A stretch of 64,000 bases of DNA from a bacterium. GTDB taxonomy: Bacteria; Planctomycetota; UBA8108; UBA1146. Position numbers and translations under genes: made by a program. The stretch is taken from contig JAPOLY010000005.1 of the NCBI GenBank assembly GCA_029976805.1, positions 1,353-65,352 of the forward strand, given 5' to 3'. Below the pieces are notes generated by a model. It saw nothing but the letters and a program-made list of their open reading frames with translations, had not been told where the DNA came from and did not search any database. Numbering within the stretch: position 1 is the stretch's first letter; each line of letters starts with the position of its first letter. This document shows, one piece after another, positions 4,581 through 64,000 of the stretch.

Positions 4581-6692
4581 TCAGGGCAAACAGGGTCCCA
4601 GAGAGTCCTCCGTGGGATCCAGACCGTATCCGGGATAAGGATAGGGGATCGTTTCTCCGCCTGAGAAGAGATACGAGAGACTGTATATGGCATCACCAAT
4701 ATTCAGAATACCGTCGTCATTGGTGTCTGCCGCATCTGGACAGACAGAGGGAGCCCCGCCGATAAAAAGGTAATCGAGCATGAAAATGGCATCGGCAATG
4801 TTCACGGTCTGGTCGTAGGTCGCATCTCCCCTGACAAACAGGAATTGGGGCTGCTCTGAAACCAGAACCGTACCGGGTATGAAATAGGGCTCGAGGGCAA
4901 ATCCCCCTTCGATCGCATAAATCGTGTTGATCGGAGGAAAACCGATCCCGTTCGCAAAACTCAATTCGGTGGAACTGCCCAAAGGCAATCCAAAGGTGAC
5001 CTCGTAGTTCAGGGTACACAGAGTGTGATTGATCCCGGGATCCACAGTACGGCCGTCGAAGGGCGGCAAGGTATCGAAAATCACAGCCAGATAGAGGCTC
5101 GAATTCTCACCCTCATCGAAAATGTTTGAAATGATGAACTCGGGAGACAACTGGGCTGCCTGGGTACCGTCGATGGAAATTTCATTCATCTGCAAAAAGG
5201 TACCGTCGAATTCAACGCCGATCTGATAACCCTGCAGGGGATCGACATGTGTCCCGAGAACCGGGTGGTAAACCGGTTGACCACCGAAGACCGAGATATC
5301 CGCAAACATCATGTAGTTATCGGGAACTGTCACAACGACGGGCATGACTGTCTGTATCTGATCACTTCCACCCGGTCCCTCGACTGTCAGTGAAACCGTG
5401 TATTCCCCGGGCTCAGTGTAAGTGTGGAATCCAGAGGACGCAGTGCTGGTGGTTCCGTCACCTAAGTCCCAGAAGTGGCTGGCGATCATCCCGTTGCTGT
5501 TGCTCTCAAAATAAATTTGATGGGGCGCCACTCCATCATTCTCGGAGGAGATCACAAGCGAAGCCTCCGGAGCGGGAATGTTGTTCTGGTAGTGGATACT
5601 TCCATCGCTGCGCAGGGTGGCCATATGAACATTCGCCGCCACATCGAGACTCATGGAGTGATCCTCGGCTTCAATTCCGGTGTCCTCAGTCGTCAGGATC
5701 GTATCCGCCATACTGGCCAACCGAATCAAGCCTCCCTCAATCCATGTCGCTTTCCAGGATCCTTCAGCAATGGAGTCGAGTTTCAGATCCGTGATTGCCG
5801 CACCCGACTGGCGCTGACTTCCAATCTGATTCACAACTCCGACGTTGAGATCTGCATGAATGAAATGAATCACCGTCCCCGAGACTGCCACCAGATGCAG
5901 CGATCCATCAAGGAGCACAGAAGCGGCCCAATCTTCGGGAGTGAAACCGAAATCATGAAGTACAAGAGAGGGCCCCTGAGACAACTCATCGAGCACCGAG
6001 TACCGGAAGAGTCCCCCCTCGTTCCATAAAACCGCTCCCGATCCATTCCCCAATCGTGCGACCGCACAGGATGAACCGCTTCCCAGAGAAACTTCAGGAT
6101 TGCCTCCCAGACGGTAGAAGATCTCTTGCCCAGTCACGGAGGTTTCAATCCAGCTGCTCAGACAGGTTCCATTCACCAGGGAGGTCACCACAGGATCGTG
6201 AGCGTCGCCCAAGCCTGCACTGTACTGAACCGGCAACTCAAAACCTGAAGCAACACTCTGGGCCACGAAAATCGCTTGTTGCCCTGAAGGCAGGGGCAGG
6301 TCAAAAGCCATATGAATACTGGCCAGAGGTCCCTGCTTGTGAACGAGATCACCCAGGCCGGAAGGTGTATCAAAGACGGGGATCAACTGATTGCCCCCCA
6401 CCAACGACCCTCCAAAGAGAATCTGGGTGTCGGAGTGAGCACTGAAGGTCAAAAAGGGTGGCAGGCAACCGAGGCAGCTCTTGTCGACCTCGACAAAGGG
6501 TTGTTGCATTTGATACCCGGGAGGCGAAATCAATTCCGGCTCACTAAACTGGGCATGGAGTGAGGAGGCCGTCAGTGAGGTGATTCCCAGGACCAAAGCG
6601 ACCAGACAACGAGCCAAAAACCCCACCCTGCGGGCAGCGGAAGTGCGCTCTTGAGAGTCACTCTTGCGGACTATGGAAATCATCGATCGCAT
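4581..6692 (-). CDS. secreted protein with a PKD domain and the C-terminal RGD-dockerin-like/Cys-tail module
   Basis: Long signal peptide (…LVALVLGITSLTASSLHAQ), PKD motif (WDLGDGTTSTASSGFHTYTEPGEYTVSLTV), C-terminus ...VRGDATYDQTVNIADAIFMLDYLFIGG...DTNDDGILNIGDAIYSLSYLFSGG...LDPTEDSLGPCLP. Confidence 0.7.
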   Translation of the reverse strand: MRSMISIVRKSDSQERTSAARRVGFLARCLVALVLGITSLTASSLHAQFSEPELISPPGYQMQQPFVEVDKSCLGCLPPFLTFSAHSDTQILFGGSLVGGNQLIPVFDTPSGLGDLVHKQGPLASIHMAFDLPLPSGQQAIFVAQSVASGFELPVQYSAGLGDAHDPVVTSLVNGTCLSSWIETSVTGQEIFYRLGGNPEVSLGSGSSCAVARLGNGSGAVLWNEGGLFRYSVLDELSQGPSLVLHDFGFTPEDWAASVLLDGSLHLVAVSGTVIHFIHADLNVGVVNQIGSQRQSGAAITDLKLDSIAEGSWKATWIEGGLIRLASMADTILTTEDTGIEAEDHSMSLDVAANVHMATLRSDGSIHYQNNIPAPEASLVISSENDGVAPHQIYFESNSNGMIASHFWDLGDGTTSTASSGFHTYTEPGEYTVSLTVEGPGGSDQIQTVMPVVVTVPDNYMMFADISVFGGQPVYHPVLGTHVDPLQGYQIGVEFDGTFLQMNEISIDGTQAAQLSPEFIISNIFDEGENSSLYLAVIFDTLPPFDGRTVDPGINHTLCTLNYEVTFGLPLGSSTELSFANGIGFPPINTIYAIEGGFALEPYFIPGTVLVSEQPQFLFVRGDATYDQTVNIADAIFMLDYLFIGGAPSVCPDAADTNDDGILNIGDAIYSLSYLFSGGETIPYPYPGYGLDPTEDSLGPCLP

Positions 6693-8561: not shown

Positions 8562-11147
8562 TCAGGGTTCGCAACCTTCATCGCAACACAGATCCCCCGC
8601 AGTCGGATCCACCCCGCAGACACCCGGTGCCGGAGGTGCAGATCCTCCAGAGAAAAGATGGGTCAGGAGTGCGACGGGGTCGGCAATATCGAGAACTTCG
8701 TCGTCATTGACATCCCCTGCATTGGCGCATTGAAGAGGACCTCCTGCGAACAAAAAATCCAGCAGTGCGATGGGATCGGCGACATTGATCAAACTGTCGG
8801 TATTGGCGTCCCCACGGACGAAGCGACCACTCACCCACCCGTCCGGAAACTGAACCACACTGACCGTGTTCCCTGATTGCGCGCCATAACCGAGGTTGGC
8901 GGCATAGATTTTGTCACCGGCAGGACTCGCGGCAATTCCAAAGGTGTAATCCCCCCCAACCGGAATGATCCTTTCGATGGCATCGATCATCGGCGGGGAG
9001 TTGGGGTCACCGACGATGTTGAAATCAGGAAGACGCACGATCGCCACATTGCCGAGACCCGCCCCCAACTCTCCTGGACCCGTGTTGGGGTGTCGACTGA
9101 ACCCCCAGTTGGTGACCGCAAGGTAGGAAGTATTTGGAACGAGGACCATCTCTTCCGGTCCGGTCCCGATACGAAGCCTGGCGACCACCTCTCTGGATTG
9201 ACGATCAATGACAGAGGCATGGTCCAGAGATCGATCGAAGCCGAAGTTGCCGACCAGCAGATGCTCTCCATTCTCGGTCAACGCGAGGGCTTGCGGGAAC
9301 TCATCCACGGCGATCGAAGTCGCGACGAGGGTGTCCACCGTGATTTCCCAAACCCTGACCCCCGTGGGGTCTGAAACGTAAACCAAATCCCCCTCCGGAG
9401 CGGCAATCATCTCACGGGGAGCACCAAGCCCCCCGACCTCGCCGAGCACCTGGTGTCCGGGAATCGACCACCGGGTCACTCGCCCGTCTCCAGCGGTGGC
9501 CACAAACAGCGATTGCCCATCCGGCGTAATCGCAAGTCCCAGAGGAGTCACCCCCAATGCGGGAAAAGAATCGATCAGATCGAGGGTCACCGGGTCGATA
9601 CATTCGATCCGGTCCGCCAGATAATTGACGATGTAGAGACGCGTGCCATCCGGAGTCAACGCCAGACGATAGGGGCCCGATGAAACCGGGATCGTCGCCT
9701 CCACCTCATCGGTGGCGAGATCGATCACGGAAAGAGAACTGCCACCCGCTGCCCCACTGAAGTTCGTGACGAAGAGTCGACCGATGCCGGCATGCAGGGC
9801 AAGCCCGATAGGCCCGGTGCCGACTTCGATGGGACTGGCGAGTTCGGAAGGATGATCCGGTGCACACGTCTCTCGCACGAGCAGGGAATACCCTCCGGAT
9901 TCTCCGCTGGCGTGTCCATCGATGACGATGGTGACCGTTTCACCTGCGGCCACGAATGTTGCCGGGATACGGGCACGTGTGGCATCGAGACCGCAACCGT
10001 CATCATTGCAGGCTCTGACATTGGCGTTGGTGGGCTCTGTGGAAACAGACGGGCAGGGGCCGCTGATCAGGGCGATCTCGGTATCAAAATCACTGCCACA
10101 ACTGTCGATTTCAATCCAGGTGTTCTGAGTCGCGGTGTAGCGATAGAAGTGTTCCGGCGCACCCGCAAAAACGAATTGGCACTGGTGCTCAAAACGGGAG
10201 ACTCCAGTGGTCACTCCAGCGACCTGAAAAGGCAGAGAGGGGATGACAAAAGCCTGTTCACACACCTCACCGGGCCCCGGTGGAGGAACCGCTGTTATCG
10301 TCCCCACCGCTTCACCGGAGTCGCTGATTCCGAAGCCATCGAAAACCACGAAATATTCGACCCCCTCCGTCACCATGAAAGAGAGGCGTGATCGCCAACC
10401 GTTCTCTCCGCAGGCATCGTCGCTGCAACCTATCGCGGTACCGGACCCTGCAGGTCCATTCTGGGATCCCGCCAGCGGGCAGTTCCCCTCGTAAACGTAG
10501 ACCTTGGTATCAAAATTGGAGTCACACAGATCGATACGAATCTCGCCCGTCTCTGCGGCGACAAATCGACGAACCACATCGGGAGCTCCGGTCACATCAA
10601 AAGGACAGGATTCGTTATAGTCGTCGACGGCCCCGATGGTCGAAACAGTGCCATTCCACGGGATCGAAATCATCTCTGCCTGCTCACAAAGGTCCGAGGG
10701 GGCCCTCTCCGAGATGCTCAGGTCATAACTTCCGCAGTCGGCAGCCCCGTAACCGTCAACCACCAGGAAATAGTCCACACCCGCCAGCAAGTCGACGTCG
10801 ACCAGTTGTGATCGCCAGCCGTTCACTCCGCAGGCGTCATCATTACAACCGGCGTACACTCCCGAATTTGAAACGGACGGGCAACTGCCTTCGTAAAGAT
10901 AGACCTTCGTATCAAAATCGGAGGAACAGAGATCGATGGTCACGGTGAGGTCCCTGTCGGGCGTGTAGCGATAAACGACGTCTCGTCCGCCGGTTGGATT
11001 AAACGGGCAGATTTCGTTGTAGTCGTCCAGTGCACCGCAGGTCTCACCGCTCCCCACAAAGGGAATCGCACCGATCACCGCTGCCGACGCACAGTCTTCT
11101 CCACCGACACCCTGGGCAGAGAGTATGCCAGGGCAACAAGCGGACAA
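8562..11147 (-). CDS. secreted protein: three PPC-like Cys-rich ~135 aa repeats, YVTN-type beta-propeller, C-terminal RGD-dockerin-like/Cys-tail module
   Basis: Three repeats of the form C..DDYNE.CPF...DVVYR....I.IDLC.S.FDTKVY.YEG.CP....GCNDDACG.NGWRS. Beta-propeller repeats (LYIVNYLADRIECID..., LFVATAGDGRVT...). C-terminus FVRGDANTDSLINVADPIALLDFLFAGG...DVNDDEVLDIADPVALLTHLFSGG...CGVDPTAGDLCC. The annotated TTG start lacks a signal peptide. An in-frame upstream extension does encode one (see findings). Confidence 0.7.
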   Translation of the reverse strand: MSACCPGILSAQGVGGEDCASAAVIGAIPFVGSGETCGALDDYNEICPFNPTGGRDVVYRYTPDRDLTVTIDLCSSDFDTKVYLYEGSCPSVSNSGVYAGCNDDACGVNGWRSQLVDVDLLAGVDYFLVVDGYGAADCGSYDLSISERAPSDLCEQAEMISIPWNGTVSTIGAVDDYNESCPFDVTGAPDVVRRFVAAETGEIRIDLCDSNFDTKVYVYEGNCPLAGSQNGPAGSGTAIGCSDDACGENGWRSRLSFMVTEGVEYFVVFDGFGISDSGEAVGTITAVPPPGPGEVCEQAFVIPSLPFQVAGVTTGVSRFEHQCQFVFAGAPEHFYRYTATQNTWIEIDSCGSDFDTEIALISGPCPSVSTEPTNANVRACNDDGCGLDATRARIPATFVAAGETVTIVIDGHASGESGGYSLLVRETCAPDHPSELASPIEVGTGPIGLALHAGIGRLFVTNFSGAAGGSSLSVIDLATDEVEATIPVSSGPYRLALTPDGTRLYIVNYLADRIECIDPVTLDLIDSFPALGVTPLGLAITPDGQSLFVATAGDGRVTRWSIPGHQVLGEVGGLGAPREMIAAPEGDLVYVSDPTGVRVWEITVDTLVATSIAVDEFPQALALTENGEHLLVGNFGFDRSLDHASVIDRQSREVVARLRIGTGPEEMVLVPNTSYLAVTNWGFSRHPNTGPGELGAGLGNVAIVRLPDFNIVGDPNSPPMIDAIERIIPVGGDYTFGIAASPAGDKIYAANLGYGAQSGNTVSVVQFPDGWVSGRFVRGDANTDSLINVADPIALLDFLFAGGPLQCANAGDVNDDEVLDIADPVALLTHLFSGGSAPPAPGVCGVDPTAGDLCCDEGCEP

Positions 11148-11324: not shown

Positions 11325-14300
11325 TTAAGGACACTGAGGGAACGAATCACAGCTCAGGACACTACCATTCGGATCGACCCCGCATACCGGGAACGGAGCC
11401 GCCGGGGGCGCCCCTCCAGCAAACAGGTATGACAGCAGGCTTACCGTATCCGCAATATTGGTCGCATCGTCATCGTTGACGTCAACCGCTGCAATGCAGA
11501 TCGGAGCTCCACTGCTGAAGAGGTAATCCAGAGAAGCCACGGCATCACTGATGTCGTGAGAACCGTCACCATTGATGTCGCCACGGACCCACTCCTGAAC
11601 GTTGCACTCGTCCGGCTCACCGTTATTGTCAGCGTCGGCACTCGTGCCGGACGCGATATCACAGCTGTCCGGAATACCGTTGGCGTTACAGTCTGCCACT
11701 GTGCCGTTGGCCACTTCACAACTGTCGAGAACGCCGCTGCTGTCACAGTCGTTCGCCGGGTCAGCCGAGATCTGACAGCTGTCCGGAGTCGAATCTCCGT
11801 CACAGTCCGTCTCCAGACCACCCACGAGGTCACAGACGTCCAGAGCACCATTCAGGTTGCAGTCCAGCGCGGCGTTGCCAGCGATCTGGCAGGAGTCGAG
11901 CTGGCCATTGAAATCGCAGTCCGGCGCGCCGGCTGCCAAATCACAGCTGTCGAGCTGACCGTTGCTGTCGCAGTCAGGGCCTGCAGTCTGATCGGCGTCA
12001 CAGTTGTTTGGAATGCCGTCACCGTCGATGTCATCGTCGCAGTCGTCGATGGTTCCGTCCTGGTCAGTGTCAACCTCACAGGCGTCCAGGTTGCCGTCAG
12101 TGTCACAGTCTGCCGCACCGGCAGCGAGATCACAAAGATCGGGCACACCATTGGTATCGCAGTCCGCCACACTGCCGTTGGCAGTGCTGCACTCATCCGG
12201 AATGTTATCGAAGTCACAGTCGATGCTGGTGCCGTTGGCAATGTCCTCTGCGTCCGGAGTTCCGTTGGCGTTGCAGTCGGCCACGCCGGAGCAATCCACG
12301 TCTTCGTATGCGAAGTCATCGATGGCGGCTTCCACGATGGAACCGGCACCAAGGTCTCCGACAATAAAGCGCATTTGCACCGTCGAGGTCAGCAAGACAA
12401 AGTCCGCCACGTTGAAGGAATGCTGGATCCAGCCACCGATGGTGTCCGGCCCAGTAGGACCGAGGAGTTCAACATTGGTCCAGTTGGCCAGGTCATCCGA
12501 AATCTGGATCGTCATGGTGTCGGCACCCGGGCTGGCCCCGGCATTGTTGGAATACCAGCGCCAGTAACTGATCACGGGGCTGCTGGCACCCAGCAGGTCC
12601 ATGACCGGGCTGTAGAGGGTGGTCTCTCCACCGTCGACGTCATTCTCACCCAGGGTTCCGCCCACACTTCCCTGACCGGTGAACCAGCAGTTGGTTCCCG
12701 CTGGGGAGTGATCCGCACCCGGCTGAGCAGTCGTGCCAATCGGTGCACCACGCTCCCAGATACCGGTGGTCGCCGTCGCCGGAGCACCCACGCTCCAGCC
12801 ACTGGCCACTTCGAAATCGGTGGTTTCCTCGGTGAGACCAAAGGCACTGACGCCGGTAGCAAGGGCACCACCTGTGGCTCCCTCAGGGTACGTCACGGTC
12901 TGGCCACCCGTGCTCTCGGCAACGATGTACCAGCCAAAGGTTTCCCCGCAGGGAATCGCCGGGAAGGTCATTTCGTAATTCAGTCCGCCGGTGGAAGCCA
13001 ACGGAATGGCCTGACTCCCGGCAGCGGTTTCCACCTGAAGAGACTCGGTTCCGGCAGCCACTGCCGATCCTGCCAACGGGGTGATGGTCACCGCAAAGGT
13101 TTCTCCACCCAAAGGATTGAAGATGGTTGGGTCGCCATTGGGAACCGCAATCGCCAGTGCAGCAGCCACGTCGATTTCGCAGGGAACCACTCCGGAAGGA
13201 GTATTGCCAACGGAAGCGTTCACTCCGTAAACGTGCACACCCGGCAATGCCGAGCTGTCCGTGTAAGAAGTGGACGATCCTGCAAGACTGGTCAACGGAG
13301 TTCCGTCACGGGTGATCTGAATGAGGTCATAGACTTCACCATTACCCCAGGAGAGATCCACACTCTCACCATTCTGGTTACAGGTGAGGCCAGTCACCGG
13401 AAGGGTGAAATCACCACTTGGCGCCAGAATCTCGACACTGGAACTGCCACCACCGGTGAAGTGATCCAGAGTGGCGGTCACAAGAGTCGGCGGAGCGTTC
13501 GCCACGAAACGGAAGCTGTGCATGGTGCCCCAGCGAATCGCGTGGGCATTCACATTCTGGGCTTCCGTCTGGGTGGACCAGCTCATGGTGCCCGCGCCCT
13601 GATTCGGCGTCCAGGCGAGGTTGCTGTAAGGCTCTCCACTATGGTACTCGGGGTGCGTGGAGTCGACACCGGTCAGGGTCACTCCCCCGGCCAGCGGGAA
13701 CTCAAAGGACTGAACATTGCGCGTCGAATCCATGTTGTAGATGGCATACTCGTAGGCGTGCTGGCCCGCACCCAAATCGGTGACACGGTAACCCATGATC
13801 ACGAGACCGTTCTCGGCGTCGAAGACTTCGACCAGGGTCACTTCAGGATCGAAATCTTGCCAGGCCTGAATTCCCGGCTGCTGACGCTGGGTGGTTCCGG
13901 TCAGGCTCATGTTGCGGTTGCCAGTCTGCCCGAAGGTCACTGTTCGGTAAGAGCAGTTGTTGTGGGAGTTGCCTGCGGCGGAGTCATCGACCGTCACGTA
14001 CTGGCCCTCGACGACGTAAATCGCCCCGGGGAATGCGCCATTGTCGATGTCATTGGTGGCCACCCGAAGTCGCTTGGAGGTGGCGTCGTTGATCAGACCC
14101 GAATTAATGATCGGGTACTGGAAGAGACCATTGGCGACATCAAAGACTTCCGAACGGGGACCAAGGCCACTCTGCTGACCATTCAGCCCGGAGGAGTAGG
14201 GGTCCGAACAGCCCACTCCAAGGAGTGAACCGGTTCCGGGGTTGATGCAACCGCACCCACAGACGTTACCGGTCAGGGCCAGGAAGCCATGCTTCAGCCA

Positions 14301-38907: not shown

Positions 38908-39056
38908 TGTGTCGTAACTGTTTTATTAACCCGCCTGATCGTTCAGGCAGGAAGTTTTGATTTATCTCTATGGGAGGTGTGTCCCCTGCACCCGTCAAAA
39001 GTGCACGTGGATTCTTCCATGGAACATGGATTCCCCTATTTTGCCCGGGAGAAGTT

Positions 39057-45000: not shown

Positions 45001-45569
45001 GCATCGGTACCTCCGAGACGGCTCCGGTCTCTTGCTCTGTCACGATCCTGCCGCCACCGATCAATCTTGCGTGCACTTTCTACGGTGCACCGATCAACCT
45101 GAACTGGGTCAACACTGCCAACTACACGACGATTCACATCGAGCGTAACGGGGTACTTCTGGCCTCGATTTCCGGCAATGCCACCCAGTACCAGGACATC
45201 GTTCCGGTGGAAGGTGACTACAGCTACGTGATCTATGGTGAGCATGCCGACGGTGTCACCACCTCGACCACCTGCTCCGGATACGTCAAGCGCTTCCTCA
45301 GGGGTGATGCCAACAGCGACACCAACTGCGATATCGCTGACGGTATCTGGGTCCTGAACTGGCTCTTCATCGGAGGACAGGAGCCGACCTGTTACGACTC
45401 CGCGGACTTCGACGATAACGGACTCGTCACCATTGGCGACGCCATGCTGATGATCTTCTACTACCTGCACGCTGAGGGTATGCCGAGCATGCCTCCCGCG
45501 AACAACTACCCGGAGCCGGGTCTCGACCCGACCGACGACACTCTCGACTGTATTGATTCGCCCTACTAG
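39057..45569 (+). CDS. giant secreted adhesin-like protein: 7 FG-GAP repeats (integrin-alpha-type beta-propeller), ~19 tandem ~88 aa Ig/FN3-like domains, C-terminal RGD-dockerin-like/Cys-tail module
   Basis: Signal peptide MSQLLRHRLATLLLAIFVLVTGVFCSDVTVAG. FG-GAP motifs (GDVNMDGYKDTILGAP, GDVNGDGISDFLIGAP, GDFNSDGYADLLIGAP, GDINDDRANDLVIGAP ...). Repeated domain consensus L.W.N...YD.I.I.RDG..IA.L.G..TSYTD.....G.H.Y.L. The C-terminus is FLRGDANSDTNCDIADGIWVLNWLFIGG...DFDDNGLVTIGDAMLMIFYYL...LDPTDDTLDC. Confidence 0.85.
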   Translation: MSQLLRHRLATLLLAIFVLVTGVFCSDVTVAGDAVFVDTAQIKVYGARSDSNLGKSVSGAGDVNMDGYKDTILGAPENDNTSDGRRGHAYIVLGSPNIETEIDLKNPTPGTTIKIVGSHAGDLLGYSVSDAGDVNGDGISDFLIGAPNSYGSGGSDEDGNGRAYLIYGSANLPSVIHVGSLGSLGVTFIGGQESGHFGYSVSGAGDFNSDGYADLLIGAPDEEHGSSNSGAAYLIYGGMLSGTIDLKFGHSSVTRFKTGGNSDNVGHSVADLEDFDGDGHDDIAITAMRHPDDGGINAGRVWVVYGGMSTGPNVNLNNLSDYGLSGTKIRVPDGDHELGQSVAGAGDADNDGDSEILISRSLHDQDPTTLQTIAYLVRGSADRPATIHLGQGGPGITAYKTLFDNDEDGQTVHGIYDHSGDGLDDHIVGIPRTVILEQEKGSAHRVNGGQDLGANEVLDLHQQEGRAYLGVHDNQSVGRSVGGVGDINDDRANDLVIGAPGASPYGRFRAGVAYFFLGKELRSPNQVQTSAVGQVVTVTWNNRAVYDTVELFRDGMLLATLPGDTETYTDSNVAYGDHTYRVRGNRRHITTVKKSSMIRVLTPISNFECTSQGRNVTLEWHNNDNYSSTDVYRDGNLIATTPGGAQSYSDIDVSYGPHTYTLVSRGDRSETLPTHCMINVLQPPYLPSCFAEPNPVSNDVEATINWTNGPDTIYENIRIFRDDQLRATISGTAVTYTEVLPEPGTYTYSVQGVDDSGRALSDKIYCEVVDPIAPKALECSSIGQIAFFNWVNTDAYDTIIIEFGPADGSQPPVNLATLAGNTQSYQTTVAAPGEYTVCIRGESLMDPNSPNFGQSSRICCTLSVPYPLANLTSSAQGQVVNLEWENGGEYDTIEILRDGLFLASISGHLTNYTDNAVPFGLREYTLRAKLRQGVTDDISTSITVLRSPENFTCRGEADQVRLNWTNPLPSYSDIDIYRDGQHLTSVSGDDMEYIDAPLSPGSFSYSIKARLGSSTSDSSDCDTVIPEPINTVGTGLLNGRNVLITWANPVTEATSVRLFRDGNEIASLPPTTTAFLDPDLLVGTYTYCVRAEIDDNYSSLSCADAIVPAPPNDITCTVDNAVTTVTWTNGELYDNIIIMRDGGTIEEEIAGDASSYVDNNPGPGPHLYQVFGRIGDFVSESLDCQVIVPYPPAQLVCTLANGTDSVLSWINTEPSTSILIYRDGVQIAEVAPDAGGYTDAGVAPATYTYCVVNVFAHAPGSKTSAPTCCDLVVPAPPTNLTCLSVSGDVELAWVNNDAYETLTLRRDGNVIAELDGTSTSYTDPLVTPGNHMYSIAGTILGNTSTYDSCMEDVPAAITDLSLSSFADTVTLNWNHSGPGDEVVIARDGTVIATLSSSETTYTDTGLAAGDYEYCLTMTIGDGTSPTVCGFIHVLANPSDLSCVSAAGFVNLSWTNNDAYDNLVIERDGTLLAILSGTDTSYTDGSAAVGLRSYTLRGETSTSISGNDSCTVDHFLTAPGNLSCSVTAGEADLSWTNGDTYESIVVSRDGTLLEILPGDVTSYHDATIVYGSRSYSLVATGGSIESDPTSCGLEVPAMPMDLASSTLDDTVTLTWTLAAPGEAQTVTRDGAVIATIGGGMTMFTDTPGPGTYEYCVTNSIGGNTSATVCTAARVLANMTGFSCSSAAGLVTITWTNNDTYGALLLERDGEKLASLNGDTSSYVDTTADTGNHTYELTASVETENTTSGTSTCTVLHELAPVSDLACSVTAGEVDLSWNVNDTYESISLSRDGEFLALLSGDATSYHDADALAFGAHTYSLVAAAGSIESDATSCTVEVPSTPENLVCTLSNGAQVQLSWDLPAAGSSVSIFRDGALIDTLGGSATSYTDTPGSGVYTYSVVNNSADGTSPATSCDIVVPVPLSGLGCTTIGDGNILTWTNGETYDSIAVYRNGEKIGAANGGTESFTDFPLDAGTYDYDLIASIGTSETAPVSCSVTILPPPINLACTFYGAPINLNWVNTANYTTIHIERNGVLLASISGNATQYQDIVPVEGDYSYVIYGEHADGVTTSTTCSGYVKRFLRGDANSDTNCDIADGIWVLNWLFIGGQEPTCYDSADFDDNGLVTIGDAMLMIFYYLHAEGMPSMPPANNYPEPGLDPTDDTLDCIDSPY

Positions 45570-46596: not shown

Positions 46597-48747
46597 ATGT
46601 TGCACACCAAAGATTCGATTATCGGTCTTCGATCTTCCGAATTTGCGACCATGAACCGTTGGCTACTGCTGGCGCTGATCCTGATCGTCGGTTCGGTGCA
46701 AAACCAGGCCTCGGCACAGGTGTTCTGTGATCCTGCCAATCCGACTTACGGAACCTGCTTTCTGCAGACAGGAACATTCAGCGGTGACCTTCCCTTTGCG
46801 GTGACCCTGATCCCTGCCACCAACGATCTTTACGTGGCGGATTATCTCAGTGGTGTTTTCTACCGCTACGACGCTCTTGACCTCGCCGCAGCGGCAGAAA
46901 ACTTGGCCTGCCCCAAAGGCCCTGCCACCTACCTCGGGATGGCTTTTTCTGTTCTCGACAACAACCTTTACTGGATCGTCAATGATCAGGGAAGCCTGCT
47001 GCTGGTGGTCTCCAGCCTTGGAGGAAGCTTCATCTCTGAAACCGAGTTGACTCCTCCTTCCGGAACGACCGCCCTCTCGGGACTGACCTGGTTCCCGTCA
47101 ACAAATACTCTTTGGACCAATGACTTTGAAAATGATCAGTACCTCGAGATGAACATGGACGGTTCCTTCACCGGAAACTCCTTCGGAAACCCCCAATCCT
47201 CGGGAGCTGCAGGCGCCTTTGGACTGGGACTTTCGGTCGCTCAGGACATCCTTACTTTTGAGTTCTTCTTTGACCTCCCGGTCGGCCCACCTTCTGCAAA
47301 CCGCACAAGCCTGGTCGAGCGTGTCAATTCGAACGGTGAATCCCAGGGCCTCTCATTCCCGCTGGCCAGCATCAATAACCTGAGTGGCTGGATCACCGGA
47401 ATCGCCTGGGCTCCCCAGGGTTCTGCTGCGGAATCCCCCAGTAACTTCCTCCTCGATCTCACCAATCGGGTGATCGTCGAGGTTCCGGTTCCCAACCCGC
47501 CCGCCCCTTCCATAACCTCTGTCGATTGCACCGCTGACAGCTCCAACGATGTCACTCTCAGCTGGACCAATCCCCTCGCCTACGATCAGGTTGAGATCTT
47601 CAGGGACGGAACCCTGATCTCCACCCTCGGCCCTGGAGGCGATACGTTCCTGGACGAGGATCTCGAGCCGGGGAGCTACAGTTACGAAGTCGTTCCCTTC
47701 CCTGCAGGAGCCAGTTCCGGATTGCCTGCCGCAACATGTGAGCTGGTAGTCGGGTTCGGCAGGCTTCTGGGAGAGGTGGCTCACTCCGGAACTGCACCGG
47801 GTGGCGCAGACGTCATCGAATCAACGAATCAGTTGATCGTTGCCGATTCCAGTGGACTGACCGCATGGTTCTACCAGAAAGACCTCACCCCTCTCTCCAC
47901 CAGCATCCCGGGCCCTTACAGCAGTGCCCAATCCCTCGCTGGTATCGCCGCCGATGGCGACGACAATTTGGCTTGGCTGACGGAGAGCGGAGATCTGAGA
48001 ATCACCGACTTGAGTGGAACCGAAACAGCGGCATTCGCTCTGGCCCTGAACCCCGGCGCCGTTTTGGGTGGCCTGACCTGGTCTGCTCAGATGGAAAGCT
48101 GGCTGACAGTCAACCTTGCTGAGGGTCTGATCCTGAAAATCAATACCGACGGTACTCTCGAAGAAGTCCCCGCTGCACTTCCCACAGGAATGTCTGCGGC
48201 CTCCTTCTTCGGCGGAATCGCCTCCCGTGCAGGTTCCACCAATGTCTATGATCTGGCATTCGGAGCCCTCAACAGTGGCGGTGTCACTCGCCTCGAAAGA
48301 TTCGTGGGGAATACCCCGGTCGGACTGGGATTCGATCTCACGCCCAGCGTCAACTCCGGAGATATTCGTGGGCTCGCAGCCACTGCGAACGGGCCCTTCA
48401 ACTTCCCGGTGACCTACGTGGTCGGTCGCGACTCTGGAACCATCACCATGCTCTCTGGAGATCTCAGTGGTACCGGATCAGACTTCGTTCGCGGGGACGC
48501 GGTGGCAGATGGATCCCTGAACCTTCTCGATGCCACCGAAATGCTGCTTCAACTTTTCCAGTTACAGGACAGCCTTTGCCTCGATTCACTCGACGCCAAT
48601 GACGATGGAGCTTTCAACATTGCGGATCCCCTGCTCCTGCTGGACTACCTTTTCTCCGGCGGCACTCCGATTTCCGATCCTTCGGGAGTGTGTGGAGAAG
48701 ATCCGACGGTCGACAATCTGACCTGCCAGGAGTTCCCCGGCTGCTAA
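46597..48747 (+). CDS. secreted protein with one Ig/FN3-like domain of the giant-protein repeat type and the C-terminal RGD-dockerin-like/Cys-tail module
   Basis: GAGGAAAGAG RBS. Long signal peptide (...MNRWLLLALILIVGSVQNQASAQ). Internal domain VTLSWTNPLAYDQVEIFRDGTLISTLGPGGDTFLDEDLEPGSYSYEV. C-terminus FVRGDAVADGSLNLLDATEMLLQLF...DANDDGAFNIADPLLLLDYLFSGG...CGEDPTVDNLTCQEFPGC. Confidence 0.7.
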   Translation: MLHTKDSIIGLRSSEFATMNRWLLLALILIVGSVQNQASAQVFCDPANPTYGTCFLQTGTFSGDLPFAVTLIPATNDLYVADYLSGVFYRYDALDLAAAAENLACPKGPATYLGMAFSVLDNNLYWIVNDQGSLLLVVSSLGGSFISETELTPPSGTTALSGLTWFPSTNTLWTNDFENDQYLEMNMDGSFTGNSFGNPQSSGAAGAFGLGLSVAQDILTFEFFFDLPVGPPSANRTSLVERVNSNGESQGLSFPLASINNLSGWITGIAWAPQGSAAESPSNFLLDLTNRVIVEVPVPNPPAPSITSVDCTADSSNDVTLSWTNPLAYDQVEIFRDGTLISTLGPGGDTFLDEDLEPGSYSYEVVPFPAGASSGLPAATCELVVGFGRLLGEVAHSGTAPGGADVIESTNQLIVADSSGLTAWFYQKDLTPLSTSIPGPYSSAQSLAGIAADGDDNLAWLTESGDLRITDLSGTETAAFALALNPGAVLGGLTWSAQMESWLTVNLAEGLILKINTDGTLEEVPAALPTGMSAASFFGGIASRAGSTNVYDLAFGALNSGGVTRLERFVGNTPVGLGFDLTPSVNSGDIRGLAATANGPFNFPVTYVVGRDSGTITMLSGDLSGTGSDFVRGDAVADGSLNLLDATEMLLQLFQLQDSLCLDSLDANDDGAFNIADPLLLLDYLFSGGTPISDPSGVCGEDPTVDNLTCQEFPGC

Positions 48748-59656: not shown

Positions 59657-59772
59657 TAACTCCAGCCTTTGGCAAAGCCAGGGGCTGCAGTCGGTATTTA
59701 CCGGCGGCTCACAAATGGGTAAGTTGATGGCCAGTGGAAGACTAATCCCGTTCAAACGGACAGGAGGTGTTT

Positions 59773-60493: not shown

Positions 60494-61543
60494 ATGAATC
60501 CACCCAACATCAAAGTTGATCTCCGCTCCGATACGGTCACCCATCCGACAGAGGAGATGCTCGAGGCGATGAGAACCGCCCCCCTCGGAGACGATGTCAT
60601 GGGTGAAGACCCGACCATCAATCTTCTGGAAGAGGAAAGTGCTCAACTGCTCGGCAAGGAAGCAGCCATCTTCGTCCCCTCCGGAACCATGGCCAACAGC
60701 ATCGCCATTGGAGCCCAGACCCGACCCGGTGATGAAATCCTGCTCATGGAAGACAGTCATATCTTTCTTTATGAAGCGGGAGGATCCTCCCGCCTGTGGG
60801 GTGTTCATCCACGTCCCATCTCTTCAACCGATGGCTGTCTCACTGCTGAGGACATCGACTCCCGGATTCGCCCCGATGATCCCCACCAACCGATCACTTC
60901 AATGGTCTGCCTTGAAAATACGCACAACATGGCAGGTGGAATTGTCGTCTCCCCGGAACAGATGGCACCCGTGATTGCGACGGCCAAAAAGCACTCATTG
61001 CGATTGCATCTGGATGGTGCCCGTCTTTTTCATGCTCAGGCAGCCCTCGGTATCCCCGCTTCCGACTTGGTGAAAGACTTCGATTCCATTTCCTTCTGTC
61101 TGTCAAAAGGTCTTTCATGCCCCGTCGGTTCCATCCTGTGTGGTGACCAGAAGACGATTGCGGAAGCTCACCGACTGCGCAAACTGCTCGGAGGTGGAAT
61201 GCGTCAGGCTGGAGTGTTGGCGGCAGCAGGCCGGGTGGCTCTGGCAGAGAGTGTTCCACGCCTCAAGGATGATCATCGAAGATGTCAGATTCTTGCAGAG
61301 GGTCTCGCAAACTTGCCGGGAATCGAGGTCTCCCCGAACCCCACCCATTCGAATATCGTTTTCATTCGCAAGGCGGGTTCGACTGCAGAGGACTACGACC
61401 GACACCAGACCTCCCTCGAGGAACGGGGCGTCCAGGTCTTCAGTATCGGCCCTCGGGGCTTACGGGCGGTGGTTCACCGTCAAATCGACGATGTGGCGAT
61501 AGAACGTGCCCTGGAGGCTTTTTCAGCCGAATTTCAGTCCTGA
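60494..61543 (+). CDS. ltaE: low-specificity L-threonine aldolase
   Basis: DLRSDTVT N-terminus, PLP-lysine region, and overall Beta_elim_lyase/threonine aldolase similarity. Confidence 0.8.
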
Positions 61544-61786
61544 TTCCTTTCCGAACCCTCACTCCTTCCGGGTACTGAAGGGGTGGAGATGGAGAGTCTC
61601 CAGTCCCCTGAGGCCTCGGCCGAGGGGGTTGAGGTGGTGCCGACCCGGAACCGGCGAATTCCGGGAGCATGGTATACTCCTTCAGCGATTCTTTTGGCCC
61701 TTTGGGCCTCTTTGGTTCGTTTCGCCCGCCGGTCGATTTACAGCACTGGTCGATTCACCTTGCTGGTCGATTCAAAAGGAGTGGAC

Positions 61787-62407
61787 ATGTGCCCTGCTGC
61801 TGAAAAGCCTGACTCTGAAGCCGGAGCCGAGGAGAACGATGACATCCGTCTCGTTCGCCTGGCGATGGCCGGAGACACACAGGCCTTTACCCAGCTGGCA
61901 GAGAACATCGCACCACTGCTCCTCGGAATGGCCCGCAGAAAGGTCGGACGGGAAGACGCAGAGGATCTTGCACAGGAGGCGATGCTTCACCTGTGGAAAT
62001 CACTGCCGAACCTTCGTGAGCCCCAGGCATTCTATGGCTGGCTTTCCAGACTGCTGCGCAATCGTGCGCACCGTTGGATTGAGCGCCGGCAACGGAAAAC
62101 CGTGGTCCTCGAGGAGGCCCGTCACGAACTGTTGCTCAGGGCCCAAACCCGTACCGACCAACAGGATTTCACCGACGCCGGTGAATCCGAATCGCGGGAA
62201 TGGCTCGACCAGCTTCCGGATGAGATGCGCCTCGCACTCACCTGGAAGTACGTGGATGGTCTCGATTACGACACCATCGGCGAAAGACTCTCCCTCTCCT
62301 TTCATCAGGTCGATTACCTGATGCGCCGGGCCCGAAAAGCCCTGAAGTCGCTTCTCGACCAACGGGAAACCGCCCGTCGGGATCTTTCGAATGGAGGCCG
62401 AGGATGA
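61787..62407 (+). CDS. ECF-type RNA polymerase sigma factor
   Basis: Region 2 (LAQEAMLHLWKSLPNLREPQAFYGWLSRLLRNRA) and region 4 (LALTWKYVDGLDYDTIGERLSLSFHQVDYLMRRARKAL). AAGGAG RBS. The start is at MCPAAEKP. The track ORF begins earlier at 61583. Confidence 0.8.
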   Translation: MCPAAEKPDSEAGAEENDDIRLVRLAMAGDTQAFTQLAENIAPLLLGMARRKVGREDAEDLAQEAMLHLWKSLPNLREPQAFYGWLSRLLRNRAHRWIERRQRKTVVLEEARHELLLRAQTRTDQQDFTDAGESESREWLDQLPDEMRLALTWKYVDGLDYDTIGERLSLSFHQVDYLMRRARKALKSLLDQRETARRDLSNGGRG

Positions 62408-63093
62408 GTGCCGATTCTCTCTTTTCACTGCAAAGCTGCCCCACCATCGTCGAGGCATTGCCCCGATTTATCGATGGCGAATCTGGACCGACCGAAGAGA
62501 TTCGGGTGGCCCAGCATCTCGAGCGTTGCAGTCGTTGTCGCAAACAGCATGACCATATGGTGCAAGAGTGGAAAGACACCCTCGCTGTCATCCATGGTGA
62601 CCCGAGCACTGAAACCCGAACCTGGGTCAAAGACATCACCTCTGCTCTACCTCAGCAGGAGGAACCGGTCACGACCGATGAAAGTCCGGTCACCCTTTCT
62701 GCTCCTGCGACGGTGCCCGGCCCGGGCTCTGGTCGCTGGGCCAGCGTGGCCGCCTCCCTGTTACTCGCCCTCTTCCTCTTCCCCGGAACTGAAAAGACCC
62801 CCTCTCCCAGCGGAACTGAATCTGCTCCCGTTGCCCTGACCCTCATCCGCGGAGACGTCGATGCCAGTGGCAAACTGGATTGGCGAGACGTTCAGGGGCT
62901 GATCGATTTCCTGCAGGAAGATGGACCGGAACCGCGCTGCATTGCTGCCGGTGACTTTGACGAGGATGGAGAGATCACCATCGATGATTCGGTTTTGGCT
63001 CTTTCACACCTCACCGAAGGGGCCGGACTCGATTCCACCATTCTTTACTCCCAAACAGTGGATTCCCTGCCCTGCTTTGAACACTGCCCCTGA
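62404..63093 (+). CDS. zinc-finger anti-sigma factor whose periplasmic domain is the RGD-dockerin-like/Cys-tail module
   Basis: ATGA overlap with the sigma gene. zf-HC2 motif (HLERCSRCRKQHDHM). Single TM (WASVAASLLLALFLFPG). Extracytoplasmic LIRGDVDASGKLDWRDVQGLIDFL...DFDEDGEITIDDSVLALSHL...DSLPCFEHCP. Confidence 0.7.
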   Translation: MSADSLFSLQSCPTIVEALPRFIDGESGPTEEIRVAQHLERCSRCRKQHDHMVQEWKDTLAVIHGDPSTETRTWVKDITSALPQQEEPVTTDESPVTLSAPATVPGPGSGRWASVAASLLLALFLFPGTEKTPSPSGTESAPVALTLIRGDVDASGKLDWRDVQGLIDFLQEDGPEPRCIAAGDFDEDGEITIDDSVLALSHLTEGAGLDSTILYSQTVDSLPCFEHCP

Positions 63094-63112
63094 GACCCGG
63101 AGATCCCCGACC

Positions 63113-64000
63113 ATGCTTCCGAAGAGCCTGCTTCTGCTGACGATCGCCTTGCCACTGTGGATCTTCCACAGCCCGGTGGATGAATCTGTTGCAGCAAGCT
63201 CCAGATCCCCGGTCCATGTCGACGAGGAAAAACCCTTTGTTCTTCTCGCCACAGTCCACAACTTCGGCTACGTCGAACCCTGTGGCTGACCCAAGAGAAA
63301 GATCAAGCTCGGCAGTCTGTCGCGGCGACTCACTTACCTGAACTCACTGAAAGCCCAGGGCATCGAACCGTGCATCGTTGACGGTGGAGACTGGCTCTTT
63401 CACCTCAACAAGTTGCGCTCCAATCCACTGGTCATGAAACAAATGGACGAAAAAGCCAAATTGCTCATCGATGCCTACAACCGCTTTGGAACCGCAGCGG
63501 TCTGCCTGGGTGAGCACGATATGGCTTTGGGTCTCGATCGCCTTCTCGAGTTGGCGAAGGAACTCAAATTTCCACTCCTCTGTGCCAACATGACCCTCAA
63601 GGATGGAACACGCCCCTTTGGGGGAAGCACCATTGTCGATAGTCAGGGTCGTAAAGTTCTTCTGGTTGGTGCCATCCAGATCCCCAACGAGCGTTTTATC
63701 GGCAAACATTGTCCAGACGCACAATTTACCGATCCCTACGAAGCGATCAAAAAAGAGATCGACCAATCCAGAGGAAAGTTTGATCTGTGTGTCGTCCTCG
63801 GTCATATCGATCGTCGGGATGTGGATCGACTCGCAGCGGAGGTTCCGGGAATTGACGTCATCGTCGAACCCCACTCCCATGACCGGACAGAAATCACCTG
63901 GATCACCGAGGACATCAAAACCGGTCTTCATGAGGGAACGGTTCTCCTCAAGCCCAGTGGTCAGGGTTCCGAATTTGCCAGAGCTGATCTCTGGTTCCGA
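63113..64000 (+). pseudogene. 5'-nucleotidase/metallophosphoesterase (UshA/CapA-like) gene interrupted by an in-frame TGA at 63287; continues off the window
   Basis: A signal peptide ORF (MLPKSLLLLTIALPLWIFHSP...VEPCG*) is followed in the same frame by IVDGGDWLF, LGEHDMALG, PLLCANMTLKDG, GRKVLLVGAI, which are metallophosphoesterase/5'-NT N-domain motifs. No start codon follows the stop for ~140 nt. Confidence 0.5.

What the first reader, a model, noticed from the sequence alone, without database searches (positions are those of the whole stretch)
61787..63093. ECF sigma / anti-sigma pair in which the anti-sigma's only extracytoplasmic domain is the dockerin-like module
The anti-sigma has a zf-HC2 cytoplasmic domain and one TM. 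Its periplasmic or surface part consists solely of the RGD-dockerin/Cys-tail module found on the giant secreted proteins. This is architecturally analogous to Clostridium RsgI anti-sigma factors that display carbohydrate-binding modules to sense extracellular substrate. Here the sensed entity would be whatever binds the dockerin-like module, perhaps a cohesin-like scaffold or the surface layer. This would couple occupancy of the docking system to transcription of ECF-dependent genes, possibly the adjacent 5'-nucleotidase-like gene or the distant adhesins.
Basis: partly seen in the sequence, partly recalled or inferred. Interest (0 to 1): 0.65.

Follow-up and report, generated by a model that had tools for sequence, protein, structure and literature searches.

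The report
Anti-sigma factor with dockerin-like sensor
A marine planctomycete carries a stress-type sigma factor whose membrane-bound inhibitor exposes, outside the cytoplasm, only a small calcium-type "dockerin" protein-docking module. This sensor domain is unusual, but it most likely controls the adjacent selenoprotein/cytochrome genes and not the giant surface proteins.

Summary
Window 61787-62407 encodes an ECF sigma factor. Window 62404-63093 overlaps it by ATGA and encodes a 229-aa class-I (zf-HC2, HxxxCxxC) anti-sigma. This protein has one hydrophobic helix, a 17-aa P/S/T-rich tether and an 84-aa C-terminal module.

An HMM built only from the five large-protein modules in the window scores this module at 37-40 bits (E about 1e-11 to 1e-13). 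Its AlphaFold model (core pLDDT above 90) matches only dockerins in the PDB.

The module is a diverged subtype. It scores 35-42 bits against 70-106 for canonical copies, and it lacks the LFxGG and CGxDP motifs. It is nevertheless the best-conserved part of the protein across about 15 marine Planctomycetota MAGs.

In every relative the pair is followed within about 20 nt by an UshA-like "PCGU" selenoprotein fused to a tetrahaem cytochrome, then its Cys paralogue, then a TraT-like lipoprotein. A conserved bipartite promoter-like motif occurs once per locus, upstream of sigma. It is not found near the adhesin-like genes.

The architecture is real and unusual: a new variant of a known kind. The "docking-occupancy sensor" reading remains speculative. 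The RsgI comparison is an analogy, not family membership.

The parts
61549..61575 (+). Conserved bipartite motif TTCCGAAyC-N14-GGTAC(T). It is a candidate ECF-type, autoregulated promoter of the sigma operon.
   Evidence: It occurs exactly once per locus, always upstream of sigma, in 17 related loci. The spacing is fixed and the spacer sequence varies. It is unique in the window, where 0.03 matches are expected by chance. Its function is inferred.
61670..61678 (+). Conserved TGnTATACT, which looks like an extended -10 element. It is a possible housekeeping promoter in the sigma leader.
   Evidence: It is invariant in an alignment of four divergent upstream regions. The consensus scan found no full sigma-70 promoter. 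Its function is inferred.
61787..62407 (+). ECF sigma factor gene (206 aa).
   Evidence: Sigma70_r2, Sigma70_r4_2 and TIGR02937 all score above their cutoffs.
62404..63093 (+). Anti-sigma factor gene (229 aa), translationally coupled to sigma by an ATGA overlap.
   Evidence: Twelve homologue clusters and about 15 genome loci share the same architecture.
62437..62541 (+). Cytoplasmic zf-HC2 (ZAS) anti-sigma domain, aa 12-46, with H38-x3-C42-x2-C45 plus C12.
   Evidence: Pfam PF13490 scores 34.7 bits, above the gathering score. The residues are conserved. AF2 models the helices at pLDDT 70-86.
62728..62790 (+). Single transmembrane helix, aa ~109-129 (SGRWASVAASLLLALFLFPGT).
   Evidence: It is the only hydrophobic segment. 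AF2 models helix 111-125. W112, A117, L121 and L125 are invariant.
62791..62838 (+). Flexible P/S/T/E-rich tether, aa 130-145.
   Evidence: It is 0-8% identical in the most distant homologues and varies in length.
62839..63090 (+). Extracytoplasmic dockerin-like module, aa 146-229. It has two Ca-loop/helix repeats (GDVDASGKLDWRD and GDFDEDGEITIDD), C179, and the tail T-x-D-S-L-P-C224-x3-C228-P.
   Evidence: The five-module HMM scores it at 37-40 bits. Pfam Dockerin_1 gives E 0.0023, which is below the gathering score. The AF2 core has pLDDT above 90, and the Foldseek top 31 PDB hits are all dockerins. It is the most conserved region of the protein.
63113..64000 (+). Start of the downstream gene X. 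It encodes an UshA-like 'PCGU' (seleno)protein fused to a tetrahaem cytochrome c. It runs off the window and is the probable first target of the sigma factor.
   Evidence: NF041198 UshA_like_PCGU scores 7.5e-71. The gene carries Cytochrome_C554 and four CxxCH motifs. The gap after the anti-sigma is 19 nt and includes a GGAG. The synteny is conserved.
63287..63289 (+). In-frame TGA in gene X (EPCG-TGA-PKRK). It is a candidate selenocysteine codon.
   Evidence: TGA sits at this position in all 14 distinct orthologous sequences. The paralogue Y has CGC (Cys) at the same site. The family is curated as a selenoprotein family.
4584..4853 (-). Canonical RGD-dockerin/Cys-tail module at the C-terminus of a 703-aa PKD-domain protein.
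8565..8837 (-). Canonical module at the C-terminus of an 861-aa beta-propeller protein.
11328..11603 (-). Canonical module at the C-terminus of a 1126-aa Cys/Asp-repeat protein.
45282..45566 (+). Canonical module at the C-terminus of a 2199-aa FG-GAP protein.
48475..48744 (+). Canonical module at the C-terminus of a 716-aa protein.

Best explanation
This is a genuine ECF sigma / class-I (zinc-finger, ZAS-type) anti-sigma pair from a marine Planctomycetota lineage.

The anti-sigma holds sigma in the cytoplasm through its N-terminal domain and crosses the inner membrane once. On a short flexible tether it presents a single small Ca2+-type dockerin fold with three conserved cysteines.

The most likely mechanism has three steps. 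First, the module is a protein-binding sensor at the outer face of the inner membrane, and it binds a dedicated periplasmic or envelope partner. That partner is probably not the one used by the canonical modules of the giant proteins. Second, gain or loss of the interaction changes the stability of the anti-sigma. As in other single-pass class-I anti-sigmas, this would run through site-1 cleavage followed by intramembrane proteolysis. Third, the freed sigma transcribes its own operon. That operon runs on into the UshA-like PCGU selenoprotein/tetrahaem cytochrome gene, its Cys paralogue and a TraT-like outer-membrane lipoprotein.

Shown here: the architecture, the homology and fold of the module, its strong conservation, the operon layout and synteny, and the conserved upstream motif.

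Inferred: partner binding, proteolytic release, and the regulon.
For: Sigma and anti-sigma domains score above the curated cutoffs, and the two genes overlap by ATGA.

The module is homologous to the five other copies in the window (HMM 37-40 bits, E about 1e-11 to 1e-13). It shares the family tail motif TxDxLxC...C.

The AF2 model has a core pLDDT above 90. The 31 best PDB matches are all dockerins, most solved in complex with cohesins, at TM 0.7-0.88 and rmsd 1.4-3 A. Both Ca-loop ligand patterns are intact.

The module is the best-conserved region of the protein. At the deepest comparison it is 68% identical, against 50-55% for the anti-sigma domain and 0-8% for the tether. That pattern is expected for a specific binding surface.

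The wider module family contains proteins that combine it with Pfam Cohesin. P0285 carries PF00404 plus PF00963, and the inter-module domain of P0016 is 40% identical to that cohesin. The fold is therefore used for cohesin-type protein docking in this phylum.

The anti-sigma version is a separate subtype in every genome, scoring 35-42 bits against 70-106.

Gene X starts 18-25 nt after the anti-sigma in all relatives and is followed by Y and TraT. The bipartite motif occurs once per locus, upstream of sigma only.
Against: No partner has been identified. There is no cohesin in the window or in the 20-kb related loci.

Pfam Dockerin_1 scores below its gathering score (18.5 against 22.9).

The structural model rests on an alignment dominated by canonical modules, and its tail is poorly modelled (pLDDT 53-66). 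The full-length model was poor (pLDDT 48).

Strong conservation could equally reflect the folding constraints of a small Ca/disulfide-stabilised domain.

Proteolytic release, the promoter and the regulon are all inferred. No site-1 or site-2 protease gene was examined.
Confidence: 0.45

Rival explanations
1. The anti-sigma module binds the same cohesin-like scaffold or surface structure that docks the giant secreted proteins. Occupancy of the docking system then feeds back on transcription, possibly of the adhesin-like genes. A variant: dockerin-tagged cargo in transit titrates a shared periplasmic receptor away from the anti-sigma.
For: The module is homologous to the canonical copies, and both types occur in the same genome. 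There are five canonical copies in the 64-kb window and two in L020. Members of the module family carry cohesin domains, so cohesin-dockerin assemblies plausibly exist in these bacteria. A cohesin/dockerin 'planctosome' has been hypothesised for other Planctomycetes (PMC6461901).
Against: The anti-sigma module is a consistently diverged subtype, scoring 35-42 bits against 70-106. The conserved YLFxGG and CGxDP signatures are replaced, which predicts a different binding specificity.

The tether is only 17-26 residues from the inner membrane, so the module cannot reach an extracellular scaffold.

No copy of the sigma-upstream motif lies near any of the five module-bearing genes.

The conserved genomic partners are cytochrome/selenoprotein genes, not adhesins.
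Confidence: 0.12
2. The module has no protein partner and acts as a physico-chemical switch. Dockerin folds need Ca2+, and this one carries three invariant periplasmic cysteines. Loss of Ca2+ or reduction/mis-oxidation of its disulfide would unfold it and expose the anti-sigma to periplasmic proteases. Envelope Ca2+ or redox state would thus be linked to expression of periplasmic haem/selenium redox proteins.
For: Both Ca-binding loops are intact. C179, C224 and C228 are invariant across all homologues. The downstream genes encode periplasmic tetrahaem cytochromes with a redox-type CGU/CGC motif. The module is small and is the only extracytoplasmic domain.
Against: These MAGs are marine, and seawater Ca2+ is high and nearly constant (established knowledge). 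This makes Ca2+ a poor signal. The surface-exposed residues are also invariant, not only the ligand and core residues. An odd number of cysteines gives no clear disulfide scheme, and the tail is poorly modelled.
Confidence: 0.2
3. The signal is cytoplasmic. The ZAS zinc/thiol centre (C12, H38, C42, C45) releases sigma on oxidation, as in RsrA. The extracytoplasmic dockerin module only anchors or stabilises the protein and carries no signal.
For: The complete C-x25-H-x3-C-x2-C ligand set has RsrA-like spacing and is conserved. The best NCBIfam hit is antisig_RsrA, although far below its cutoff (23.4 against 62.5 bits).
Against: Most ZAS proteins are not redox sensors (established knowledge). 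RsrA is soluble and has no TM helix or outer domain. The outer module is more conserved than the ZAS domain itself, which is hard to explain for a passive anchor.
Confidence: 0.15

Closest known systems
Class I (ZAS, zf-HC2) single-pass anti-sigma factors of ECF sigma factors, e.g. RsiW/SigW, RslA/SigL, RskA/SigK
   Same: It has an N-terminal anti-sigma domain with HxxxCxxC. The gene lies immediately downstream of, and is translationally coupled to, an ECF sigma gene. It has one TM helix and a variable extracytoplasmic C-terminal domain. These features were tested.
   Different: The extracytoplasmic domain is a dockerin-like module. I found no such combination in the literature searches, in the ECF reclassification paper, or in profile searches outside this one family.
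RsgI/SigI polysaccharide-sensing anti-sigma factors of cellulosome-producing clostridia
   Same: The logic is the same: a single-pass anti-sigma displays outside the membrane a module type that also occurs on the organism's secreted multi-protein machinery. Signalling is by regulated proteolysis (PMC10328401 and PMC6582324, titles and abstracts).
   Different: The families differ on both sides. This protein has zf-HC2 and not RsgI_N, and an ECF sigma and not SigI. No periplasmic autoproteolytic domain was detected. The outer module is a protein-docking fold and not a carbohydrate-binding or glycoside-hydrolase module. It is an analogy only.
Type I dockerins (Pfam PF00404) of cellulosomes
   Same: It has two loop-helix Ca-binding repeats with a D-x-D/N-x-D/S-G...D pattern. 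The predicted fold superposes on cohesin-bound dockerins at TM 0.7-0.88. Other members of the same planctomycetal module family pass the Pfam cutoff (P0016 47.8 bits, P0090 51.1 bits).
   Different: It scores below the Pfam gathering score (18.5 against 22.9). It carries an invariant mid-module Cys and a Cys-containing C-terminal tail (TxDxLxC...C). It is attached to a regulator and not to an enzyme or adhesin. No cohesin partner is known.
RsrA/SigR (soluble ZAS redox sensor)
   Same: It has the same zinc-ligand spacing (C12/H38/C42/C45 here, against C11/H37/C41/C44 in RsrA, the latter from my own knowledge). There is a weak TIGR03988 hit.
   Different: RsrA has no membrane segment and no extracytoplasmic domain. 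The score is far below the family cutoff.
Hypothetical 'planctosome' cohesin/dockerin assemblies of freshwater Planctomycetes (PMC6461901)
   Same: Cohesin and dockerin modules sit on non-cellulolytic secreted proteins of Planctomycetes. The module family here includes cohesin-bearing proteins.
   Different: That proposal concerns peptidase display. It involves no regulator and is itself untested.

Membership tests
ECF (group 4) sigma-70 factors | Regions 2 and 4 only, with a match to the ECF superfamily model | tested here: met
   Sigma70_r2 4.4e-15 and Sigma70_r4_2 1.9e-8. TIGR02937 scores 81.3 bits against a cutoff of 42.9. No region-3 hit.
Class I ZAS anti-sigma factors | N-terminal anti-sigma domain with a zf-HC2 / HxxxCxxC motif | tested here: met
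   PF13490 scores 34.7 bits against a gathering score of 22.2, over aa 12-46. H38, C42 and C45 are at least 90% conserved.
Class I ZAS anti-sigma factors | Encoded next to and co-transcribed with the cognate ECF sigma | tested here: met
   ATGA overlap. The same pairing occurs in all related loci.
Class I ZAS anti-sigma factors | Physical binding and inhibition of the sigma factor | not testable with these tools
   This needs co-purification, two-hybrid or in vitro transcription assays.
RsgI anti-sigma-I factors | N-terminal RsgI_N domain that binds SigI | tested here: not met
   The Pfam scan at E<=0.1 returned only zf-HC2 and Dockerin_1.
RsgI anti-sigma-I factors | Cognate sigma is SigI-type | tested here: not met
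   The sigma matches ECF models. No SigI model appears among the 25 NCBIfam hits listed (of 91).
RsgI anti-sigma-I factors | Extracellular carbohydrate-binding or glycoside-hydrolase sensing module | tested here: not met
   The only extracytoplasmic domain is dockerin-like.
Type I dockerin (PF00404) | Score at or above the Pfam gathering threshold | tested here: not met
   18.5 bits against 22.9, E 0.0023.
Type I dockerin (PF00404) | Duplicated Ca-binding loop plus helix (F-hand) and the dockerin fold | tested here: met
   The loops are D151-x-D153-x-S155-G...D162 and D184-x-D186-x-D188-G...D195. The AF2 core has pLDDT above 90, and the top 31 Foldseek PDB hits are dockerins. This is a prediction, not a solved structure.
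Type I dockerin (PF00404) | Ca2+-dependent binding to a cohesin | not testable with these tools
   No cohesin was found in the window or the loci. The rest of the MAG could not be searched.
Planctomycetal RGD-dockerin/Cys-tail module (the family on the five large proteins) | Significant match to a profile built from the other copies | tested here: met
   36.9-40.4 bits, E 2e-11 to 1e-14. The orthologues score 35-42 bits.
Planctomycetal RGD-dockerin/Cys-tail module (the family on the five large proteins) | Full signature F-x-RGD...LFxGG...C...NDDG...LFxGG-PxP-CGxDPTxDxLxC...C | tested here: inconclusive
   Retained: RGD, the mid-module Cys, both Ca loops, TxDxLxC and the terminal Cys. Lost: both LFxGG motifs and the PxP-CGxDP segment. 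The scores are about half those of canonical copies.

The most novel reading that the evidence does not exclude
The dockerin-bearing anti-sigma is a built-in reporter of a planctomycetal cohesin-dockerin assembly pathway. A periplasmic cohesin-like receptor or module-handling factor normally caps the anti-sigma's module. When dockerin-tagged cargo in transit competes for that factor, or when the factor is missing, the uncapped anti-sigma is degraded and the sigma factor switches on. This would be a regulator that monitors a protein-docking system by carrying a decoy copy of its docking tag.
Probability: 0.1. Interest if true: 0.7.

Novelty: new variant of a known kind. Interest (0 to 1): 0.4.

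Why it matters
ECF anti-sigma factors are a main route by which bacteria sense the envelope, and for most of them the sensed signal is unknown. In this case the sensor is a fold whose only well-characterised biochemical role is high-affinity Ca2+-dependent protein docking. That gives a concrete experiment: fish for the partner using an 84-residue domain. It also links the regulator to an uncharacterised periplasmic selenoprotein/tetrahaem cytochrome operon in uncultured marine Planctomycetota. If the partner proved to be a cohesin, it would be the first regulatory use of the cohesin-dockerin pair that I know of, and it would support the idea that these bacteria build cellulosome-like surface assemblies. 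If not, this is one more anti-sigma sensor-domain variant of lineage-restricted interest.

Tried and rejected
- Full-length AF2 with the 13-sequence alignment gave a poor model (pLDDT 48). It was used only for the N-terminal helices and the TM helix.
- I searched for a cohesin in the window. Pfam scans of 37 large ORFs and tblastn with the cohesin regions of P0285 and P0016 found nothing. The related 13-20 kb loci also gave nothing.
- I looked for independent zf-HC2 + dockerin fusions elsewhere. The single-sequence search and a mixed profile returned only this one family among PF13490-bearing hits. These word-indexed searches are not exhaustive, and the exhaustive search lists only 150 of 44,057 hits without annotation.
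- Literature searches for anti-sigma + dockerin and for planctomycete dockerins found no description of this architecture. Peer et al. (PMC3035643) is not held.
- The sorting-signal idea for the canonical module (a strictly C-terminal tag like PEP-CTERM or the T9SS CTD) was rejected. Family members carry the module N-terminally after the signal peptide, internally, or in tandem arrays.
- My first impression that P0016 has cohesin-like domains was not confirmed by Pfam or PDB sequence searches. It was later supported indirectly through 40% identity to the PF00963-annotated region of P0285.
- Rfam found no SECIS or other RNA family near the TGA or in the sigma leader. RNAalifold gave a 7-bp stem with no covariation, which is uninformative.
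- The sigma-70 consensus scan found no canonical promoter in 61300-64000.
Full report
**1. What is at the coordinates**

Window 61787-62407 (+) encodes a 206-aa protein preceded by AAAAGGAG. It carries Sigma70_r2 (4.4e-15) and Sigma70_r4_2 (1.9e-8), and it scores 81 bits on the ECF superfamily model TIGR02937 (cutoff 42.9). No NCBIfam subfamily cutoff is reached, so it is an ECF sigma of no named group.

Its TGA overlaps the ATG of a 229-aa ORF at 62404-63093 (ATGA). That protein has these parts:
- A zf-HC2 anti-sigma domain at aa 12-46 (34.7 bits against a gathering score of 22.2), with C12/H38-x3-C42-x2-C45.
- One hydrophobic segment at aa ~109-129. It is the only Kyte-Doolittle peak and is helical in the AF2 model.
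- A 17-residue P/S/T/E-rich tether.
- An 84-residue C-terminal module at aa 146-229.

The N-terminal domain must meet sigma in the cytoplasm and there is a single TM helix. The C-terminal 100 residues are therefore extracytoplasmic. This is an inference from topology logic; no dedicated predictor was available.

**2. Is the C-terminal module the one found on the large proteins?**

tblastn with the anti-sigma C-terminus finds the C-termini of four large ORFs at E 1e-6 to 1e-8, and a fifth weakly. These ORFs are:
- 4581-6692(-), a PKD-domain protein
- 8562-11147(-), a beta-propeller protein
- 11325-14705(-), a protein with Cys/Asp-rich repeats
- 38970-45569(+), an FG-GAP protein of 2199 aa
- 46597-48747(+)

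All five have signal-peptide-like N-termini, and each ends in the module.

An HMM built only from these five copies scores the anti-sigma at 39.6-40.4 bits. E is 2e-11 against all 888 six-frame fragments of the window, and the next best fragment has E 4.4.

The HMM alignment covers the dockerin core (model positions 4-68). A 65-sequence family alignment shows that the tail also keeps the near-invariant T-x-D-x-L-x-C and the terminal Cys of the family.

**3. What the module is**

Pfam Dockerin_1 hits the anti-sigma at E 0.0023, which is below the gathering score (18.5 against 22.9). It hits three of the five large proteins at similar levels.

The module family is very large. A profile of the six window copies finds 44,057 representative clusters at E<=1e-3 among 1.84 billion. 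The module sits C-terminally, N-terminally after a signal peptide, or in tandem arrays. It is therefore a modular domain and not a terminal sorting tag.

Members with source names are almost all 'hypothetical' or 'dockerin type I domain/repeat-containing protein' from Planctomycetota. About half carry precomputed PF00404. P0016 and P0090 pass the Pfam cutoff.

An AF2 model of the anti-sigma module, built with a 65-sequence alignment, has a mean pLDDT of 80. Residues ~10-60 are above 90 and the tail is at 53-66. The 31 best Foldseek matches in the PDB are all dockerins, most in complex with cohesins, at target-normalised TM 0.7-0.88 and rmsd 1.4-3 A.

Some family members combine the module with a Pfam Cohesin domain in one polypeptide. 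P0285 carries PF00404 plus PF00963. The repeated inter-module domain of P0016 is 40% identical to that region, E 2e-37. Cohesin-dockerin type docking is thus plausible in this phylum, as was hypothesised for other Planctomycetes (PMC6461901).

**4. The anti-sigma copy is a distinct subtype under strong constraint**

With the same HMM, canonical modules in related genomes score 70-106 bits. The anti-sigma copies always score 35-42 bits. The two LFxGG motifs and the PxP-CGxDP segment are replaced (LIDFLQEDG, LSHLTEGAG, LDSTILY).

The module is nevertheless the most conserved part of the protein. Against the most distant homologues it is 68% identical. The anti-sigma domain is 50-55% identical and the tether 0-8%. 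W160, all Ca-loop ligands, C179, C224 and C228 are invariant.

**5. Distribution and context**

The window is 100% identical over the anti-sigma to contig JAAXJX010000006.1 of 'MAG: Planctomycetia bacterium SW42618_bin_2'.

The protein family comprises 12 clusters in the 5.8-billion protein set. It occurs in about 15 species-level genomes (L007-L021), all marine Planctomycetota MAGs. One contig is labelled Bacillota but is syntenic with the rest. More distant hits (L022-L026) are canonical modules on large secreted proteins.

The synteny is strict: Amidase_2 / small ORF / Fer2_BFD(-) / threonine-aldolase-like / sigma / anti-sigma / gene X / gene Y / TraT-like lipoprotein / FG-GAP protein.

Gene X starts 18-25 nt after the anti-sigma stop. 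In the window the gap is 19 nt and contains a GGAG. The genes very probably form one operon.

X and Y are signal-peptide proteins. Each has an UshA-like metallophosphoesterase domain of the curated 'UshA_like_PCGU (seleno)protein' family NF041198 and a C-terminal tetrahaem cytochrome c with four CxxCH motifs.

**6. Promoter and regulon**

Upstream regions of sigma from divergent relatives share two blocks.

The first is TTCCGAAyC-N14-GGTAC(T), with fixed spacing and an unconserved spacer. It is present exactly once in 17 loci and always upstream of sigma. L020 has GCTACT in place of GGTACT. It resembles an ECF-type '-35 GAAC / -10' pair, and I take it as the candidate autoregulated promoter. 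This is an inference.

The second is TGnTATACT (61670-61678), which looks like an extended -10 element.

In the 64-kb window the first motif occurs only at 61549-61575, even in relaxed form. None of the five module-bearing genes has it. The evidence therefore points to a local regulon (sigma, anti-sigma, X, Y, TraT) and gives no support for control of the distant adhesin-like genes.

**7. Mechanism**

The steps that are shown are the architecture, the homology and fold of the module, its conservation, and the operon layout. The rest is inferred.

My preferred reading (0.45) is a protein-binding sensor on a short tether. It binds a dedicated periplasmic or envelope partner, and occupancy controls the stability of the anti-sigma through regulated proteolysis, as in other single-pass class-I anti-sigmas.

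I consider it less likely (0.12) for four reasons:
- The subtype is diverged.
- The tether is short and cannot reach beyond the periplasm.
- No promoter motif lies near the adhesin genes.
- The conserved neighbours are cytochromes.

Two other rivals remain. One is a partner-less Ca2+/disulfide fold switch (0.2). The other is cytoplasmic ZAS redox sensing with a passive outer domain (0.15).

**8. Comparison with known systems**

Membership in the ECF sigma and class-I ZAS anti-sigma families is met on the sequence-testable features.

RsgI/SigI membership fails on all three features tested:
- no RsgI_N domain
- the sigma is not SigI-type
- no carbohydrate-binding module

The resemblance to RsgI is functional only. 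Dockerin membership is met by fold and Ca-loop pattern but not by the Pfam threshold, and cohesin binding is untestable here.

I found no description of an anti-sigma factor with a dockerin domain. I also found no independent fusion outside this family, within the limits of the searches.

**9. Verdict**

This is a real, conserved and unusual sensor-domain variant of a well-known regulatory kind, restricted to one uncultured marine lineage, with a concrete testable hypothesis. I score interest at 0.4 and rate it a new variant of a known kind.

Noticed in passing
window 63113-64000 (TGA at 63287-63289); full gene in L007 10710-12170: The gene after the anti-sigma has an in-frame TGA in the motif EPCG-TGA-PKRK. 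TGA sits at this site in all 14 distinct orthologous sequences, while the adjacent paralogue Y has CGC (Cys). The protein matches NCBIfam NF041198 'UshA-like (seleno)protein, PCGU' and is fused to a tetrahaem cytochrome c (four CxxCH). Gene callers split it into a 56-59 aa ORF plus a ~400 aa ORF.
   Followed up: yes
window 63284-63320: The ~35 nt after the TGA are almost invariant at the nucleotide level, including synonymous positions (AAGATCAAGCTCGGCAGT). The proteins are only ~67% identical. RNAalifold pairs GGCUGACC (which contains the UGA) with GGCAGUC. There is no covariation and no Rfam SECIS hit, so a SECIS-like element is possible but unproven.
   Followed up: partly
window 61577-61665 (sigma leader): The leader contains several perfect or near-perfect palindromes: GGAGATGGAGAGTCTCC, CCTCGGCCGAGG and CCGGAAC..GAATTCCGG. 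The first is conserved in the closer relatives (L004, L007-L012), and the whole block is absent from L001/L003. No Rfam family matches. This could be a leader or attenuator structure, or a protein-binding site.
   Followed up: no
P0285 and P0016: Some members of the module family alternate the RGD-dockerin/Cys-tail module with cohesin domains in one polypeptide (dockerin-cohesin-dockerin). This would allow self-assembling chains. P0285 carries precomputed PF00963. The P0016 repeats are 40% identical to that region but are missed by Pfam at E<0.01.
   Followed up: partly
window ~11620-12300 (-), inside ORF 11325-14705: The ORF holds a long array of short Cys/Asp repeats of the form DCDxNGxxDxC, which look like thrombospondin-type-3 Ca-binding repeats. 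The array lies immediately upstream of the C-terminal module and has no Pfam assignment.
   Followed up: no
L018 and L026 (QNYK01000079.1, QNYK01000025.1): These contigs are labelled 'MAG: Bacillota bacterium isolate MAG 7'. They carry the planctomycetal sigma/anti-sigma/PCGU operon in full synteny, and a canonical module protein. The bin is probably mislabelled or contaminated.
   Followed up: no
window 22996-28015 (-): A type II/III secretin gene (915 aa) overlaps the end of a 772-aa CHAT-domain (caspase-like) protein gene. Next to it are a HEAT-repeat protein and an MreB/actin-like gene (21019-22047). The secretin is a possible export route for the module-bearing proteins.
   Followed up: no
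window 59767-60033 (+) and 60037-60324 (-): A small, highly charged coiled-coil-like ORF (88 aa) and a small Fer2_BFD-like Cys protein (95 aa) lie upstream of the threonine-aldolase-like gene. Both are conserved in synteny with the sigma operon in all relatives. Their functions are unknown.
   Followed up: no
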